Below are positions 1 to 55,069 of a stretch of 64,000 bases of DNA, piece by piece; positions within the stretch are counted from its first letter, which is position 1, and the number at the start of each line of letters is the position of its first letter. The notes beneath the pieces were generated by a model. That model saw nothing but the letters and a program-made list of their open reading frames with translations. It did no database searches and was not told the DNA's origin. Location of the stretch: sequence record OR670491; one strand, given 5' to 3'. Source of the stretch: Escherichia phage vB_EcoM_JNE01. Both the position numbers and the translations under genes were made by a program.

Positions 1-7
1 TTATAGT

Positions 8-37
8 TTGGGAAATACTCCAGAAAAGTGCTATAAT
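8..37 (+). promoter_or_regulatory. sigma70-like promoter (TTGGGA, 18-nt spacer, TGcTATAAT extended -10)
   Basis: Motif read directly; it precedes about 500 nt with no plus-strand ORF, ending at the terminator near 542-567. Confidence 0.4.
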
Positions 38-44
38 GTATAGT

Positions 45-541
45 GAAAATGACAATGGGCGGTGTAAGCCGGATAACGAGAACCTAATTCTCTTGAAAAT
101 GTAAAGGATAGATGAGCTTTACCATTGTAGCGATGAGCAAAAGAAACCCGTAAGAGTACTAGCAGCCATTCCAACAAGGCATAAGAACTACGAATCACGG
201 CGAAGCGGCTCAATAAAGAACTCCGACAGCATAACAGAGAGTTCCTCGATAGACTTATAAGGATCGCACCTTACCAGATTTGCTAAGGGAGTTTAACTCA
301 ATAAATGCGGTCGCAATTTTTCACAAGAAAGTTGCGTCCAAATTTTGAGTAAACAAGTACTACTTTGGTCGAATAGAGTTAGTACTTTGTGCTGGGGATG
401 AAAAGACCAGTGACCGTTGCATATGACTGCGATAGAGAGAAACAGAGCAACCCGCTTTCGTTCTCTTAAATTAGACGAGAAAGATCCGTCTAAAATTTGA
501 GAAATTCGCAATTCGACAATTCCGATGCCATCAGCGTCAAG
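45..541 (+). ncRNA. candidate noncoding transcript (unclassified) between promoter and intrinsic terminator
   Basis: Only peptides of about 12 codons on plus strand; several short hairpins (GTAAAG/CTTTAC, GAACTC/GAGTTC, AGTACT pair); the two minus-strand ORFs look like noise. Confidence 0.3.
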
Positions 542-567
542 AAGAGACTTAATTGTCTCTTTTTTAT
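542..567 (+). terminator. intrinsic terminator (AAGAGAC/GTCTCTT stem plus T-run)
   Basis: Inverted repeat followed by TTTTTT. Confidence 0.6.
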
Positions 568-700
568 TACTTTCATTCCCCTGCGGGGGGATGAAATGTC
601 CTCAACAAATCCCGTCAAGCTTTTAAAGTACAATATAAAGGAATGAATGAGTTTACGAAGTAAACGATATGAATTCTTGAGTTACGAAGGAACGAAGTGA

Positions 701-1129
701 ATGAGTAACACAGCGAATATTTCAAATAAATCTGAATTCACACAAGAGTTGTTTAATGTGTTTTTCAAATATCAAATATTAGAAGAGAGTCAATGCTTTC
801 AGCTTTATTACAAACAAGTCGGTAGTACATACAACAACTACAAAGAACCTAATTTTTATAAAGAAATTTTGGATTTTGCAGTTAATATAAGAAATAACAG
901 ACCAATAGCAATACTGTTTTTTGACAGATCTATTCCAGTAGAAGTACCTAATCACATTTACTTCATTGAACCAGAAGATTTATCTTCAAAGAATCAATTA
1001 GATTACTTAAGGAATTGTATACTGATAGTATGTGATGAAGTGAAGTATAACCGTCAGTTGAGATGGGATATACGTCATCAAAGAGTACTCAGGGACATGA
1101 ATCCCGAATTAGCCTTTATAATTAACTAA
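701..1129 (+). CDS. hypothetical early protein
   Basis: 142-aa ORF with AGGA upstream; no recognisable motif. Confidence 0.5.
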   Translation: MSNTANISNKSEFTQELFNVFFKYQILEESQCFQLYYKQVGSTYNNYKEPNFYKEILDFAVNIRNNRPIAILFFDRSIPVEVPNHIYFIEPEDLSSKNQLDYLRNCILIVCDEVKYNRQLRWDIRHQRVLRDMNPELAFIIN

Positions 1130-1160
1130 ATATCATAGAAGAACTCTAAGGAGAGATTTT

Positions 1161-1601
1161 ATGGAAAATATTGAAAATTTAAGACATGTAATGGACTTCA
1201 TTGGAAGTACTGAAGAAGATAGTGCATACGATGAAGTACTACTTACTTTTATTGAAAATAGTTTATTTCTATCTAGTTTAGCTCATAGTTGGCATTTACA
1301 ATGTCATTTCTATACTAAGCACTTACAGTTAGATGAACTATATAAAGACTTACCAGAGTACGTTGATGCATTCGTAGAAGGTATTATGAATAATCGCGGT
1401 GCTTTGCAGGTTGGTACTGGACATAGTTACAAATTCACCCCAGTGGAAGAATGTGTTCCTATTCTTGAAGAATATGTTGAGCAATGCAAAGCAATTCATG
1501 CTATGCTTACTGAAGCTGAAGACTATGGCAGTACTAACACACTAGAAGATATTATGAGTTTTGTTGAAGGAATGCTTTACAAACTCAAAGTTTTACAATA
1601 A
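1161..1601 (+). CDS. hypothetical protein (weak Dps/ferritin-like helix pattern)
   Basis: 146-aa ORF with AAGGAG SD; the His/Glu-rich helical stretch LAHSWHLQCHFYTKHLQLDELY is only loosely ferritin-like. Confidence 0.5.
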   Translation: MENIENLRHVMDFIGSTEEDSAYDEVLLTFIENSLFLSSLAHSWHLQCHFYTKHLQLDELYKDLPEYVDAFVEGIMNNRGALQVGTGHSYKFTPVEECVPILEEYVEQCKAIHAMLTEAEDYGSTNTLEDIMSFVEGMLYKLKVLQ

Positions 1602-1650
1602 AATATACGGAGAGTCCATAACGGATTCTCCTTTCTTTTGGAGAAAATTA

Positions 1651-2004
1651 ATGAGTGAATACCGAGTAACAACTGGCCTAATGGCACGTTTAGTAGAAGC
1701 TGTACCTGAAGATGATTATGAATCTGTTTCTGACCGTCTATTCGAAGCTGACTCTGGCCTTCATATTACATATGATGGTTCATTAATTTTCAGTACTGAT
1801 GTTGATGTTCCTGCATATGAATTTGATATTTCAATTGGTACTAAACTAAGCAAAACTGCATTTATTGAAAAGTGCTTACGTGAAGGTTTTTGTGTTGATG
1901 AAAATTCAATTGAACCATATGTATCAGTATGGTGTGATAATGCTGATAGTCCAATGTCAACTACAACAATTGGTGATTTTCTAAATGCAAATCAAAAAGA
2001 TTAA
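1651..2004 (+). CDS. hypothetical protein
   Basis: ORF track starts at 1561; the in-frame ATG at 1651 has a GGAG SD and avoids overlap with the upstream gene. Confidence 0.45.
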   Translation: MSEYRVTTGLMARLVEAVPEDDYESVSDRLFEADSGLHITYDGSLIFSTDVDVPAYEFDISIGTKLSKTAFIEKCLREGFCVDENSIEPYVSVWCDNADSPMSTTTIGDFLNANQKD

Positions 2005-2377
2005 ATTCCATCAGCATTCTTCCTATCATGATTGTGATGACTGTGGGATGATGATAAGTGATATTTACACTGTTTCATGTAAAGGGTTTACATTCACTCA
2101 TGGTGAACCTGCTTATTGCTACGGCAATGAAGAAGGGGATATCGAAATAGTACTAAAAGAGTTGTTTCAGTACTTGCAAAGCGAAGGTCATGATGTTACA
2201 ATGCCCACATATTATGAAGATGATTATGAATCACATGTAGAAGAAAATACATATTATAATCAATTCGTACATGGTAATGGTTTTATTACATACCTTCATG
2301 AGAATGGTATTGAGGTAAAAACCAAGTTCACCAGTGATGACTACGATAGTGATGATTCTATGGAGATTGAAGAATGA
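1985..2377 (+). CDS. hypothetical protein (Cys/His-rich N-terminus)
   Basis: 130-aa ORF; HDCDDCG motif; start uncertain. Confidence 0.4.
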   Translation: MQIKKIKFHQHSSYHDCDDCGMMISDIYTVSCKGFTFTHGEPAYCYGNEEGDIEIVLKELFQYLQSEGHDVTMPTYYEDDYESHVEENTYYNQFVHGNGFITYLHENGIEVKTKFTSDDYDSDDSMEIEE

Positions 2378-2943
2378 AGGCCAAAGATTTAGCGGCATTA
2401 CTGATGCAGAATCCTGAAATGGAAGTGTATCATGAAAATTGGCACAGTGATGATATGTGCGAGGTATATTATTCCCCAGAAACAATTGATGGGATTGAAA
2501 TTACTCCCAGTGGTGTATTCATCAAGACTGCAAGTGTTGATTTCAATGACAGTCGTGAAATTAAACTCCCGTGTGATAAACCAATCATTGGAACAATTGA
2601 CCTAGTATTCCACCAGGAACGTCAGATTGATACTGAAAATGAAGATGGTGAACAGGTTGCTGATGTTGCCAATGTCATTTTCCCTTTTTACTATTCTGAT
2701 TCACAACCAATGCACGGTAATGATTTCTTCCGTGAACTTTTGGAAGATGGTGAGGTATATGGTCGTGATGGAAATGTATTTGCACTTGATGAGAACTACG
2801 AACCAGACCACAACACTTGGCAGTTCTATACACCAGAAGATGTTATGGAAGTAAAAGTACTAACATCATTTGACGAACAGTGGAATGTACAGTATACTTC
2901 AATGAAGTTTGAAGAAGCTAAAAAATACTTTGAAACCAAATAA
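2374..2943 (+). CDS. hypothetical acidic protein
   Basis: 189-aa ORF; ATGA start/stop overlap with the upstream gene. Confidence 0.5.
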   Translation: MKAKDLAALLMQNPEMEVYHENWHSDDMCEVYYSPETIDGIEITPSGVFIKTASVDFNDSREIKLPCDKPIIGTIDLVFHQERQIDTENEDGEQVADVANVIFPFYYSDSQPMHGNDFFRELLEDGEVYGRDGNVFALDENYEPDHNTWQFYTPEDVMEVKVLTSFDEQWNVQYTSMKFEEAKKYFETK

Positions 2944-2968
2944 GATTATCAAATAAGGATCTAATAAT

Positions 2969-3253
2969 ATGAAAATTGTTGCAAGTGCGTGGATGGGATT
3001 TGAGGATAAAACTACTGGTTACGAATCTAGCCTAATCGTTGAAAGTACTGAAGAATTAAAACGATTTAAAGCTGAAACCGATGATGATGTATTTGATATT
3101 GTATACACTTATCATCTCATCCCTAACGATACCGACTATGACAAATATTATTATGATCCAGACAGCCTCATGGAGCTAGTGTCTTGTACTGAAAATGAAG
3201 TAAATGAGACAACGGCACTACTAATGTTGAGTACTGTCCCAGCAAAGGGGTAG
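2969..3253 (+). CDS. hypothetical protein
   Basis: 94-aa ORF with AAGGA SD. Confidence 0.5.
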   Translation: MKIVASAWMGFEDKTTGYESSLIVESTEELKRFKAETDDDVFDIVYTYHLIPNDTDYDKYYYDPDSLMELVSCTENEVNETTALLMLSTVPAKG

Positions 3254-53725: not shown

Positions 53726-55069
53726 TTATTTGTCAGTGAAAGTTATCTTCCAGTATCCTTGACGGTATTGAGACATAATACTATTATGCCATTTGAATTT
53801 GTCATTATAACGATAATAGTGGCTGTCAGTACGGTTGTAAACATAGTTGTGTACTGTTAGCGGATCTATCAATTCAACACCATCATTTGTTATTTTAAAC
53901 AAAGCGTATGCTGGAATTTCTGTATCTTTATAAACGATGCCATGTATAGTGTTATTTACATAATATTGTTCAGGTATAGCGTTATATAATTCAGATGATT
54001 TCGTTACAAATCCAGTCAACGTATAATCAACACGGTAATTAGTGCTGTCAAGTTGGACTACAATCTTATTCGCTTCTGCATCTTCACCATAAGATGTGAT
54101 GACACCCTTAAGCGGATTATCTTCTTCAATTGCTTGTTGGAATTTGATACCAATTTTCTTATTTTTGTATTCAGGTTCCAAATACTCCATGTATTTTTCC
54201 CAAGAATAGATATTTCCACTTGGTGTGATTGGGTTCATAGACTGACTTACTAAAGTAAGAACATAACTATCAGGGATAGAAAGTCTAGAGTCAGTAATTT
54301 CATCAACTTTAATACATAGATTCTTTGGAGTAAACACATCAGTGATTATATCAGTGAAGTTTCCAAATTCCATATCAAATTCATCAATACCACTTTGAAT
54401 ATTCGTTGTGATTTGTTGAATAAGTTTTGGTTTCTCTACAATAGCTGGTAGAGAGAACCAGATTGTTGTTTCAAAAGTTAGAACCATGATATCTAAATCG
54501 GTATCAGTACCCTGTGGGAATCCACGAGTACTGAATTGACAATCGATTAACTCAACATCACTAAGAGAAGTCCAATCCAATGGGTTCTCGGTAAGCTGTA
54601 ACTGAATACTCGGTGCAAACAAAGTTGAGATCTGTTCGAACAATTCCATTTTTGTTTGTGTTTGAGTAACCCAAATATTCAAATCAAACGTAAATGTCCA
54701 AGGCACAGGGTTGTGCCTAGTTACTTTATGTTGCTTATCTAACTTCTTAGTATATTCGTTCTGTGCTGGTGACTCATTAGTACCGAAGATAATAGTTTCA
54801 TTTGCGTTAGAACGAATACTTTTCCTATCCATCTTAAGTTGGTTTACACTAATAGTCATGATTGGTGCTGATGGTAATACGTTTTCACTGTTACCATTGA
54901 TAATAGCAGCAGCCAAACGTGAAATGTCAGCATATCTACATGGAACTTTCTTATATTTCGCCTTCCCTTCACTATCGATTCCGTTCTGAACTTGAAATTC
55001 ACCAAAAACACGAATCAAATGTTTCAGTACTCGACGAAATTGTCCATCATAATAATAATCTACTTTCAT
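53726..55069 (-). CDS. T4 gp15-like tail completion / sheath stabiliser protein (extended)
   Basis: N-terminal region collinear with T4 gp15 as recalled: FRR ... KYKKVP ... NPVPWTFTFDLNIWVTQTQTKMELFEQISTLFAPS. Confidence 0.5.
   Translation of the reverse strand: MKVDYYYDGQFRRVLKHLIRVFGEFQVQNGIDSEGKAKYKKVPCRYADISRLAAAIINGNSENVLPSAPIMTISVNQLKMDRKSIRSNANETIIFGTNESPAQNEYTKKLDKQHKVTRHNPVPWTFTFDLNIWVTQTQTKMELFEQISTLFAPSIQLQLTENPLDWTSLSDVELIDCQFSTRGFPQGTDTDLDIMVLTFETTIWFSLPAIVEKPKLIQQITTNIQSGIDEFDMEFGNFTDIITDVFTPKNLCIKVDEITDSRLSIPDSYVLTLVSQSMNPITPSGNIYSWEKYMEYLEPEYKNKKIGIKFQQAIEEDNPLKGVITSYGEDAEANKIVVQLDSTNYRVDYTLTGFVTKSSELYNAIPEQYYVNNTIHGIVYKDTEIPAYALFKITNDGVELIDPLTVHNYVYNRTDSHYYRYNDKFKWHNSIMSQYRQGYWKITFTDK

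What the first reader, a model, noticed from the sequence alone, without database searches (positions are those of the whole stretch)
1..570. About 500 nt between a promoter and a terminator with no coding capacity: candidate structured ncRNA
An extended -10 promoter (TTGGGA, 18-nt spacer, TGcTATAAT) at 8-37 is followed by about 500 nt holding only peptides of about 12 codons, several short hairpins and a near-repeat (CGTCCAAATTTTGAG / CGTCTAAAATTTGAG), ending at an intrinsic terminator. I could not match it to tRNA, tmRNA, RNase P or a group I intron core by eye.
Basis: seen in the sequence. Interest (0 to 1): 0.45.

Follow-up and report, generated by a model that had tools for sequence, protein, structure and literature searches.

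The report
New large structured RNA of jumbo phages
This gene-free stretch encodes a roughly 520-700-nt, intricately folded non-coding RNA that matches no catalogued RNA family, occurs in 2-5 diverged copies in every RaK2-like jumbo phage examined and once in some enterobacterial chromosomal islands, and so offers a genetically tractable new example of the mysterious large RNAs carried by phages.

Summary
Window 8-37 is an extended -10 promoter whose TG and -10 hexamer are conserved in 46 homologues. It drives a + strand RNA (about 44-565) that ends at an intrinsic terminator (539-570). A further conserved structured tail runs to about 710.

A hand-built fold of 16 helices and 73 pairs, including two pseudoknots, is 95.4% paired across 46 members that are under 95% identical. 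54 pairs show compensatory changes. Slid controls give 40-48% pairing, and 0 of 500 shuffles reach the observed values.

No ORF is conserved and there is no codon periodicity. No Rfam, tRNA or tmRNA match was found. The RNA core is at least as conserved as the flanking genes.

The window holds one copy. The near-identical phage Turkey5 has three, at 54, 109 and 192 kb. Paralogues carry different, self-matching pseudoknot sequences. Related copies sit next to integrases in chromosomal islands of Serratia, Citrobacter, Enterobacter and E. coli.

I read it as a free-standing, trans-acting structural RNA of a new class, resembling ROOL and GOLLD in lifestyle but not in sequence or fold. Its function is unknown. 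The main rivals are an RNA-primed replication origin and a cis-acting leader.

The parts
8..37 (+). Promoter: -35-like TTGGGA (8-13), 18-nt spacer, TG (29-30) and -10 TATAAT (32-37). The family consensus for the upstream element is TGAAAC/TGGGAC.
   Evidence: Scan hit. The -10 and TG are invariant in 12 genera-level homologues and T29/T32-35/T37 in 46 members. The same 'TGAAACG + TATA' architecture is described as a second promoter class in phages CBB and GAP32 (PMC5259590).
44..291 (+). 5' domain of the RNA (start about 43-46, inferred from the -10). It contains P1 60-62/69-71 (variable), P2 91-94/104-107 with conserved loop GAAAAUGUA, and invariant GAUGAG 111-116. It also contains P3 116-120/127-131, P4 134-138/208-212 enclosing P5 148-151/197-200, and P6 218-223/239-244. 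Pseudoknot PK-A joins the P6 loop (about 229-231) to 282-284. AAGGGAG 285-291 is invariant.
   Evidence: Per-pair counts (helices 1-7). P3, P4 and P6 each have 3-5 pairs with changes on both sides. PK-A covaries GC:20 / UA:14 / AU:4. Invariant columns are listed.
291..354 (+). P8, a long variable hairpin that is a 4-bp GAAA-capped stem in CBB-type copies. It contains the first half of the near-repeat (335-349).
   Evidence: Base pairs 292-294/350-352 all covary (helix 8). Length variation is visible.
355..521 (+). 3' core domain, the most conserved part. It contains P9 362-366/375-379 and pseudoknot PK-B, in which the P9 loop 368-374 (GUCGAAU) pairs with 511-517 (AUUCGAC). It also contains P10 391-394/408-411, invariant GACCGUUGCA 412-421, P12 428-432/506-510 and P13 435-439/455-459. 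GCAACCCGC 447-455 is invariant. P14 462-465/499-502 closes a variable hairpin holding the second near-repeat (487-501).
   Evidence: Covariance model R1 hits 355-521 on the + strand at 171.6 bits, E 2e-42; the next best hit in 64 kb is 11.9 bits. PK-B is 100% paired with 6 of 7 pairs compensatory (helix 10). P9, P10, P12 and P14 also covary.
522..538 (+). Small 3' hairpin (GAUG 524-527 / CGUC 535-538) containing the conserved AUCAGCGUCA.
   Evidence: Counts: UG:23 / CG:16 at 526/536. Other members have GACGA/UCGUC, and the divergent member L228 has ACUAC/GUAGU. An alternative partner for CGUC is the invariant GAUG at 111-114; the data do not resolve this.
539..570 (+). Intrinsic terminator: stem 544-548/555-559, loop UUAAUU, U-run 560-565. 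It marks the 3' end of the short isoform.
   Evidence: Scan. All 5 stem pairs show changes on both sides (helix 15). The T-run is invariant in 25 phage copies. The hairpin is absent (gapped) in roughly 9-18 of 46 members, mostly bacterial-island and metagenomic copies, so it is optional.
571..596 (+). Universal hairpin UUUCAUUCCCC-UGCG-GGGGGGAUGAAA, capped by a C(UNCG)G-type tetraloop.
   Evidence: Present in all 46 members. The four C-G pairs next to the loop are near-invariant and the outer pairs change (UA:29 / CG:9 / UG:5) (helix 16).
603..619 (+). Conserved single-stranded CAACAAAUCCCGUCAAG, a second copy of the AUC-CGUCA motif.
   Evidence: A607-A609, C613, C616 and A617 are invariant in 46 members.
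651..709 (+). Structured 3' tail. One hairpin is GUUUAC-GAA-GUAAAC (651-665). A second is GUUAC (681-685) / GUAAC (705-709), whose loop holds the family-conserved GAACGAAGUGA (690-700) and the ATG (701) of the next CDS.
   Evidence: Seen by eye in alignments, with covarying stems: AGUAC/GUACU, AAUAC/GUAUU, AUAAC/GUUAU, UCAUAC/GUAUGA. MFE folds of 46 tails recover the hairpins. Not tested with the pair-counting tool.

Best explanation
Window 8-~710 is a self-contained gene for a large, highly structured non-coding RNA of a previously uncatalogued family.

Shown:
- A conserved extended -10 promoter precedes a + strand RNA that folds into at least 14 covarying helices and two pseudoknots, with long invariant unpaired stretches (GAUGAG, AAGGGAG, GACCGUUGCA, GCAACCCGC).
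- The RNA core ends at an optional intrinsic terminator. Where that terminator is read through or missing, the RNA continues into a conserved tail of hairpins.
- The family is present in 2-5 diverged copies per RaK2-like jumbo-phage genome, in unrelated gene contexts, and singly in enterobacterial integrative islands.

Inferred:
- The RNA is made by host RNA polymerase early or mid infection and is released as a stable folded molecule.
- It acts in trans through its three-dimensional shape, as a scaffold or binding surface for a host or phage macromolecule, or by self-assembly as ROOL and GOLLD do.
- It does not act as an mRNA, a leader or a DNA site.
- The paralogues' different but internally matched PK-B sequences keep each RNA pairing only with itself or its own kind.
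For: Structure: the curated fold is 95.4% paired against 40-48% when the 3' partners are slid. 54 of 73 pairs are compensatory, the covariation score is 0.494 against 0.06-0.10, and 0 of 500 shuffles reach it. Independent RNAalifold finds 33 of 55 pairs compensatory. MFE z = -3.9.

Strand: frequent G:U pairs (for example GU:30 in P13, UG:43 in P9, UG:33 in P2) would be A:C mismatches on the other strand. The covariance model hits only the + strand.

Not coding: no window ORF is intact in more than 3 of 46 members, and there is no 3-nt periodicity.

Selection: the RNA core is 86.6% identical to phage 121Q, against 67-84% for neighbouring CDSs.

Independence from context: the flanking genes differ between genera. 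In Turkey5 and BF, copy B is followed by convergent genes and a second terminator, so it has no downstream gene to regulate.

Multi-copy: Turkey5 has copies at 53.9, 108.7 and 192.0 kb; there are up to 4-5 in one IMG/VR genome. Paralogues carry distinct self-complementary PK-B codes.

Wider family: copies in a complete Serratia fonticola chromosome and in Citrobacter, Enterobacter and E. coli lie beside integrases and CI/Cro switches. They score 75-104 bits with a model built without them.
Against: - No transcript, 5' end or 3' end has been observed for any member.
- No partner, ligand or activity is known.
- The trans-acting or scaffold mechanism is argued by exclusion and by analogy with ROOL and GOLLD.
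- In copy A (this window) and several other copies, the tail runs straight into the ribosome-binding region of a co-oriented gene. A cis role for the tail cannot be excluded there.
- The different PK-B codes may simply reflect ancient divergence of paralogues.
Confidence: 0.65

Rival explanations
1. RNA-primed replication origin. Each copy would be an origin whose promoter-driven, structured transcript forms a persistent RNA-DNA hybrid and primes leading-strand synthesis, like ColE1 RNA II or the promoter-dependent origins oriF/oriG of T4. Integrative islands would carry one copy so as to be replicated by an infecting jumbo phage.
For: - Several copies are spread around a 350-kb genome, all on the same strand and independent of gene context.
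- The promoter belongs to a phage promoter class reported mainly upstream of DNA-synthesis genes in CBB (PMC5259590).
- A roughly 520-nt structured RNA from its own promoter resembles RNA II in size (own knowledge).
- A universal C4/G6 element and an AT-rich stretch follow the RNA.
- Single copies occur in small mobile islands.
Against: - An intrinsic terminator releases the RNA in the phage copies.
- The ornate fold, with two pseudoknots and long invariant loops, is far more than primer formation needs.
- No antisense (RNA I-like) promoter lies on the - strand of 1-700, and there is no Rfam RNAI hit.
- GC and AT skew do not change at copies A and C. This is weak evidence, because gene strand dominates skew.
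Confidence: 0.12
2. Cis-acting leader or attenuator. The RNA would be a very long sensing 5' leader. Its terminator at 539-570 would be read through conditionally, by a riboswitch-, T-box- or put-like antitermination mechanism, to express the downstream gene.
For: - The layout is promoter, structured RNA, terminator, then a co-oriented gene in this window (CDS 701-1129) and in the copies upstream of ADP-ribosylglycohydrolase genes.
- The tail hairpin encloses the start codon at 701.
Against: - Downstream genes are unrelated between copies.
- Copy-B-type loci are followed by convergent genes and their own terminator.
- In bacterial islands the RNA converges on the cI-like repressor gene.
- The terminator is missing in many members while the rest of the RNA is kept.
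Confidence: 0.1
3. Ribozyme. The invariant unpaired segments would form an active site for self-processing or for acting on another RNA. This is a special case of the structured-RNA reading, not a competitor to it.
For: The size, the pseudoknots and the nucleotide-level invariance of unpaired stretches across all 46 members are typical of large ribozymes (own knowledge).
Against: - No match to any ribozyme family in Rfam, even at E up to 10.
- The GAUGAG...CGAA resemblance to a hammerhead core fails at the essential C3/U4 and A13/A14 positions (sequence inspection).
- No conserved candidate cleavage site was identified.
Confidence: 0.08
4. Missed protein-coding gene(s), or a purely DNA-level repeat such as a recombination cassette or MITE-like element.
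For: - Several GenBank records annotate small CDSs inside the element (121Q_516, A4_511, fHe-Yen9-04 g347/g348, RaK2_00245, 7t3_0550-0552).
- The unit is repeated within genomes.
Against: - ORFs are not conserved and there is no periodicity.
- Compensatory changes that tolerate G:U on one strand only are not expected of a DNA site.
- There are no terminal inverted or direct repeats, and no similar sequence elsewhere in the 64-kb window.
Confidence: 0.02

Closest known systems
ROOL RNA (Rfam RF03087) and GOLLD RNA (RF01998)
   Same: These are large (about 580-800 nt), 'ornate', multi-pseudoknot ncRNAs encoded by phages and prophages. They have their own transcription signals, no known protein partner and no known function (PMC12286853). 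The present RNA shares the size class, the pseudoknotted complexity, the extensive covariation and the mobile-element lifestyle.
   Different: - No detectable sequence or structure match to either Rfam model, even at E up to 10.
- The hosts are Enterobacterales rather than mainly Bacillota or environmental lineages.
- There are no neighbouring tRNA genes.
- There are 2-5 diverged paralogues per genome.
- Homo-oligomeric cage formation is untested.
ColE1 RNA II / T4 promoter-dependent origins (oriF, oriG)
   Same: A sigma-70-type promoter produces a roughly 0.5-kb structured transcript independent of coding context. There are several copies per large genome, and a G-rich element lies downstream.
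   Different: - A terminator lies at the RNA's end.
- There is no antisense RNA I-like unit.
- The conserved tertiary-type architecture is much more elaborate.
- There is no skew signal.
- T4 origins need only a promoter plus an unwinding element (own knowledge).
RNA-seq-defined long ncRNAs of other lytic phages (PA5oct ncRNA001-004; the roughly 800-nt ICP1 transcript)
   Same: They are abundant, ORF-less transcripts of 0.25-0.8 kb in large lytic phages, with unknown function (PMC7318152; PMC7567579). PA5oct is a relative of the RaK2 group.
   Different: No sequence or covariance-model similarity to PA5oct ncRNA001 or ncRNA002, or to their 17-kb neighbourhood. ncRNA003, ncRNA004 and ICP1 were not tested.
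OMEGA/HEARO-type guide RNAs and IS110 bridge RNAs
   Same: They are structured RNAs carried by mobile elements, sometimes next to recombinases.
   Different: - No adjacent IscB, TnpB or IS110 gene.
- The neighbouring integrase is a serine recombinase in some islands and a tyrosine recombinase in others, and is absent in phages.
- No hypervariable unpaired guide segment.
- No Rfam hit.

Membership tests
ROOL / GOLLD (large ornate phage RNAs) | Match to the family covariance model (Rfam RF03087 / RF01998) | tested here: not met
   There are no hits at gathering score in the 64-kb window or in 8 bacterial loci. Neither family appears among matches up to E = 10 in three diverse members.
ROOL / GOLLD (large ornate phage RNAs) | RNA over 500 nt with many covarying helices and pseudoknots | tested here: met
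   The fold has 16 helices, 73 pairs and 2 pseudoknots. 54 pairs are compensatory.
ROOL / GOLLD (large ornate phage RNAs) | Encoded in phages or prophages, often beside tRNA genes | tested here: inconclusive
   The phage and mobile-island location is met. tRNA adjacency is not: there is no tRNA in the window, and 21 of 22 loci have none nearby.
ROOL / GOLLD (large ornate phage RNAs) | Homo-oligomeric RNA-only assembly (nanocage) | not testable with these tools
   This needs native gels, DLS or cryo-EM. The only hint is paralogue-specific PK-B pairing codes.
tmRNA / tRNA | tRNA-like domain, with a tag reading frame for tmRNA, detectable by ARAGORN | tested here: not met
   ARAGORN finds 0 genes in the window.
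RNase P RNA, group I/II introns, 6S, SRP and known ribozymes | Match to the Rfam covariance models | tested here: not met
   Searches return only sub-threshold, inconsistent miRNA, snoRNA and CRISPR-repeat noise.
ColE1-type primer RNA II | Overlapping antisense RNA I unit, with the transcript running into the origin without termination | tested here: not met
   There is no - strand promoter-like site in 1-700, and an intrinsic terminator lies at 539-570. There is no RNAI Rfam hit.
Riboswitch / attenuator leader | Consistent co-oriented downstream gene(s) under its control | tested here: not met
   Downstream genes differ between copies. They are convergent in copy-B loci and in bacterial islands.
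Protein-coding gene | ORF conserved among homologues, with codon-position substitution bias | tested here: not met
   ORFs are intact in 1-3 of 46 members. Variability by phase is 0.27 / 0.25 / 0.25.

The most novel reading that the evidence does not exclude
This would be a new class of 'ornate' large RNA that works through RNA-RNA assembly. The PK-B pairing (P9 loop with the distal strand) would form between molecules, so each paralogue builds its own homo-oligomer; the 3-5 orthogonal pairing codes per genome would keep the assemblies separate. The chromosomal islands carry the same RNA behind the same phage-type TGAAAC...TATAAT promoter. They would be satellites or defence islands that switch the RNA on when a jumbo phage infects, either to exploit or to poison the phage's RNA-dependent process. 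A ribozyme activity of the invariant core would be an equally novel alternative.
Probability: 0.25. Interest if true: 0.9.

Novelty: categorically new. Interest (0 to 1): 0.75.

Why it matters
Very few large (over 500 nt), intricately folded bacterial or phage RNAs are known: rRNA, RNase P, tmRNA, group I/II introns, OLE, GOLLD, ROOL and HEARO. What ROOL and GOLLD do is still open.

This family adds a new fold. It lives in phages and chromosomes of E. coli, Salmonella, Klebsiella, Serratia and Erwinia, where genetics, RNA-seq and cryo-EM are routine. It comes as natural sets of diverged paralogues with matched pseudoknot variants, which amount to ready-made compensatory-mutation series.

It also corrects annotation. 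Many GenBank records of these jumbo phages place spurious small CDSs on this element or leave a 0.7-kb gap.

The link between lytic jumbo phages and integrase-bearing islands suggests an RNA-level interaction between mobile elements.

Tried and rejected
- Rfam at gathering and at permissive thresholds, on the window and on diverse members: nothing consistent.
- ARAGORN: no tRNA or tmRNA.
- Hammerhead-like GAUGAG...CGAA: rejected, because core positions are not conserved (inspection).
- RNase P CR-V-like 'ACAGAGCAACCCGCUUU': rejected, because there is no complementary P4 strand and no Rfam hit.
- Conserved small ORFs, including those annotated in GenBank: rejected.
- Second copies inside the 64-kb window: none by blastn, nhmmer or an unfiltered covariance-model search.
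- Homology to PA5oct RNA-seq lncRNAs: none in the 7-24 kb region.
- The gapped pattern GACCGTTGCA-N(20-34)-GCAACCCGC on genome and metagenome collections gave many chance hits in GC-rich genomes. These were filtered out with nhmmer.
- GC and AT skew around copies A, B and C: no origin-like inflection.
- Shared proteins between islands and jumbo-phage loci held in session: none. Only a small database was searched.
- Plasmids (PLSDB): no match.
- E. coli complete genomes: 2 of 5426 carry the RNA.
- A long-range closing helix GAUG(111-114)/CGUC(535-538) predicted by RNAalifold: invariant, so untestable. A local hairpin 524-527/535-538 is an equally good or better partner.
- Literature searches for any description of this RNA: none found.

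Full report
**Where the window comes from.** Window 1-3000 is 98.4% identical to Escherichia phage Turkey5 (PQ471516, 351 kb), starting at genome position 108,724. It is about 80% identical to the Asteriusvirus jumbo phages 121Q and PBECO4. In Turkey5 the stretch equivalent to window 7-700 is an unannotated gap between two hypothetical CDSs.

**Checking the observation.**
- The scan finds TTGGGA-N18-TATAAT with an upstream TG at 8-37, and one terminator-like site at 539-564 plus a T-run.
- The near-repeat is at 335-349 and 487-501.
- The + strand folds better than all shuffles, z = -3.9; the - strand gives z = -3.05.
- No tRNA or tmRNA is present, and no Rfam family matches at gathering or at E up to 10.

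**Conservation.**
- blastn finds window 79-617 at about 69% identity in Mimasvirus (CBB, GAP32), Eneladusvirus (BF, fHe-Yen9-04, pEa_SNUABM phages) and Erwinia phages. The 3' part is also found in Salmonella 7t3/Munch, Klebsiella Kae01 and RaK2.
- In each of these the element falls in a 0.6-0.8-kb annotation gap or under tiny dubious CDSs.
- The flanking genes differ between genera.
- A 12-genome alignment shows an invariant TG-N-TATAAT and long invariant blocks.
- Against 121Q, the RNA core is 86.6% identical, while neighbouring CDSs are 67-84% identical.

**It is multi-copy.**
- Sub-queries showed 3-5 'places' per genome.
- Pattern scans of IMG/VR plus nhmmer recovered full-length paralogues that include the promoter and tail. 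Examples are 121Q at 247 and 327 kb and BF at 30, 174 and 259 kb, with up to 4-5 in one 366-kb contig.
- In Turkey5 the copies lie at 53,933-54,575, at 108,724 onward (this window) and at 192,011-192,653, all on the + strand.
- The window itself has only one copy by blastn, nhmmer and an unfiltered covariance-model search.

**It is a structured RNA on the + strand.**
- RNAalifold on 25 sequences predicted 55 pairs, 33 of them with compensatory changes.
- I then collected 46 members that are under 95% identical and located covarying helices by an all-against-all column scan.
- I tested a curated fold of 16 helices and 73 pairs, including two pseudoknots.
  - 95.4% of cells are standard pairs, against 40-48% when the 3' partners are slid by 1-3 columns.
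  - 54 pairs have changes on both sides.
  - The covariation score is 0.494, against 0.06-0.10 for the slid controls.
  - 0 of 500 shuffles reach any observed measure.
- The clearest element is PK-B. The loop of hairpin P9 (368-374, GUCGAAU) pairs with 511-517 (AUUCGAC). This appears as GAUUGUAU/AUACAAU, GUUCAUGU/ACAUGA, AUUCAUAC/GUAUGA and other variants in other members. It is 100% paired, with 6 of 7 positions compensatory.
- Frequent G:U pairs with few A:C pairs fix the strand.
- None of the window's ORFs survives in more than 3 of 46 members, and substitution shows no 3-nt phase.
- A covariance model of the 3' domain was built from 21 phage-type sequences.
  - It scores the window at 171.6 bits (355-521, + strand).
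  - It scores bacterial and metagenomic copies that were not in the model at 75-104 bits, across the full model length.

**Anatomy (window coordinates).**

| Coordinates | Feature |
|---|---|
| 8-37 | Promoter |
| about 44 | Inferred transcription start |
| 44-291 | 5' domain: P1-P7, PK-A, invariant GAUGAG and AAGGGAG |
| 291-354 | Variable hairpin P8 |
| 355-521 | 3' core: P9, PK-B, P10, P12-P14; invariant GACCGUUGCA and GCAACCCGC |
| 522-538 | Small hairpin |
| 539-570 | Terminator |
| 571-596 | Universal C(UGCG)G-capped hairpin |
| 603-619 | Conserved CAACAAAUCCCGUCAAG |
| 651-665 and 681-709 | Two more hairpins |

- The second of the last two hairpins carries the family-conserved loop GAACGAAGUGA and encloses the ATG at 701.
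- The terminator hairpin is absent from many bacterial-island and metagenomic members, while the downstream hairpins are kept.
- Copy-B-type loci end at a second strong terminator after the tail.
- I therefore expect a short core isoform and a longer core-plus-tail isoform. This is inference.
The model gives a weak extra hit at 311-348 to the P14 module.

**Beyond jumbo phages.** A scan of one genome per species, followed by nhmmer, found true members in several places:
- a complete Serratia fonticola chromosome;
- large contigs of Citrobacter amalonaticus, Enterobacter chinensis, Silvania and Serratia sp.;
- Enterobacteriaceae MAGs.

In these, the RNA lies just downstream of an integrase, which is a large serine recombinase in some and a tyrosine recombinase in others. 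It converges on a CI-like (HTH plus S24) repressor paired with a Cro-like gene. One such element also carries a Kiwa KwaB gene.

Two of 5,426 complete E. coli genomes carry it. It sits in an island of about 10 kb next to ffs and is not annotated by PGAP. No plasmid matches, and no non-jumbo phage among 50,697 phage records matches.

A 349-kb metagenomic phage contig carries three copies of the 'bacterial-type' variant, so the two variant types are not separated by element type. A few divergent metagenomic phage contigs keep only the 3' domain and the capped hairpin.

**Promoter class.** The family's upstream element is TGAAAC or TGGGAC rather than TTGACA. The CBB genome paper describes exactly such a 'divergent RpoD-like' class (-35 TGAAACG plus -10 TATA) at 18 sites in CBB and also in GAP32, many of them before DNA-synthesis genes (PMC5259590). 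The bacterial-island copies keep the same element. Whether it needs a phage factor is unknown.

**Mechanism.** What is shown is a conserved, autonomous transcription unit that produces a compactly folded RNA under strong purifying selection, in several paralogues.

Three points argue against a leader function:
- the downstream genes are unrelated between copies;
- copy B and the island copies face convergent genes;
- the terminator is dispensable while the fold is not.

Four points argue against a DNA-level site or origin:
- the selection is strand-specific and tolerates G:U;
- there is a terminator;
- there is no antisense unit;
- there is no skew change, although this last point is weak.

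I therefore favour a trans-acting structural RNA that works by binding a host or phage macromolecule or by self-assembly (confidence 0.65 for the whole statement; about 0.95 for 'structured ncRNA gene').

Paralogues within one genome always carry different, internally matched PK-B sequences. Turkey5 has GGUCGAAU/AUUCGAC, GAUUGUAU/AUACAAU and GUUCAUAU/AUAUGAA. This is compatible with selection against cross-pairing, or simply with old divergence.

**Comparison with known RNAs.**
- The nearest known kind is ROOL and GOLLD: large, ornate, pseudoknotted RNAs of phages and prophages with unknown function that form RNA-only cages (PMC12286853).
- The resemblance is in size, complexity and lifestyle only. 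The Rfam models do not match, tRNA adjacency is absent, and assembly is untested.
- Abundant ORF-less transcripts are known in the related phage PA5oct and in ICP1 (PMC7318152, PMC7567579). PA5oct ncRNA001 and ncRNA002 are not detectably related.
- No paper describing this RNA was found in the searchable library. An unindexed description remains possible; I estimate 10-15%.

**Verdict.** It is a new family of large structured ncRNA, multi-copy in RaK2-like jumbo phages and shared with enterobacterial integrative islands. Its function is unknown, and transcription and activity remain to be demonstrated.

Noticed in passing
window 681-709 (and CDS 701-1129): The last conserved hairpin of the element (GUUAC...GAACGAAGUGA...GUAAC) encloses the annotated ATG at 701 and the putative Shine-Dalgarno AAGGA at 686-690 of the downstream 142-aa ORF. 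Translation of that gene may be occluded or coupled to the RNA tail, or its start may be mis-annotated.
   Followed up: partly
L280 5934-6576 and L281 16012-16654 (Turkey5 53,933-54,575 and 192,011-192,653): These are two further full-length paralogues of the RNA in the phage nearly identical to the window's source. Copy B lies between endonuclease VII and a block of convergent baseplate-side genes. RNA ligase and 'RNA repair' genes lie 8-10 kb downstream of copy C.
   Followed up: partly
L117 3617-4268; L088 3475-4142; L130 2365-3134; L165 8004-8837; L262 8880-9667: Chromosomal copies in Serratia, Citrobacter, Enterobacter and E. coli sit between an integrase (serine or tyrosine type) and a CI/Cro-like switch. 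The L165 element also carries a Kiwa KwaB gene, and the E. coli island is inserted next to ffs. These could be satellites or defence islands related to jumbo-phage infection.
   Followed up: partly
L002 1844-1999; L003 1804-1953; L005 1757-1909; L013 1989-2195; L011 1559-2096; L006 1471-1975: GenBank records of 121Q, A4, fHe-Yen9-04, RaK2, 7t3 and Hallingskeid annotate small hypothetical CDSs, on either strand, inside the RNA. None is conserved across the family, so they are probably spurious calls.
   Followed up: yes
window 8-13 and homologous positions in all 46 members: The promoter's upstream element follows TGAAAC/TGGGAC rather than TTGACA. This matches the 'divergent RpoD-like' promoter class reported for CBB and GAP32. 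The element is retained in the bacterial-island copies, which suggests a possible dependence on a phage factor.
   Followed up: partly
L228 1010-1540 (- strand), L198, L225: Divergent metagenomic phage contigs (GC 0.44-0.48) keep the 3' domain, PK-B and the capped hairpin (92-104 bits with model R1) but have an unalignable 5' domain. In L228 both CGUCA motifs are replaced by CGAAG.
   Followed up: partly
L034, L015, L025, L011, L012, L007 (downstream of the RNA): In one orthologous group of copies, spanning several genera, the RNA is followed directly or within two genes by an ADP-ribosylglycohydrolase gene. Whether this is more than inherited synteny is unknown.
   Followed up: no
window 1161-1601: This is a Dps-like ('DpsA' / starvation-inducible DNA-binding protein) gene two genes downstream of the RNA. 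It is conserved in Asteriusvirus genomes.
   Followed up: no
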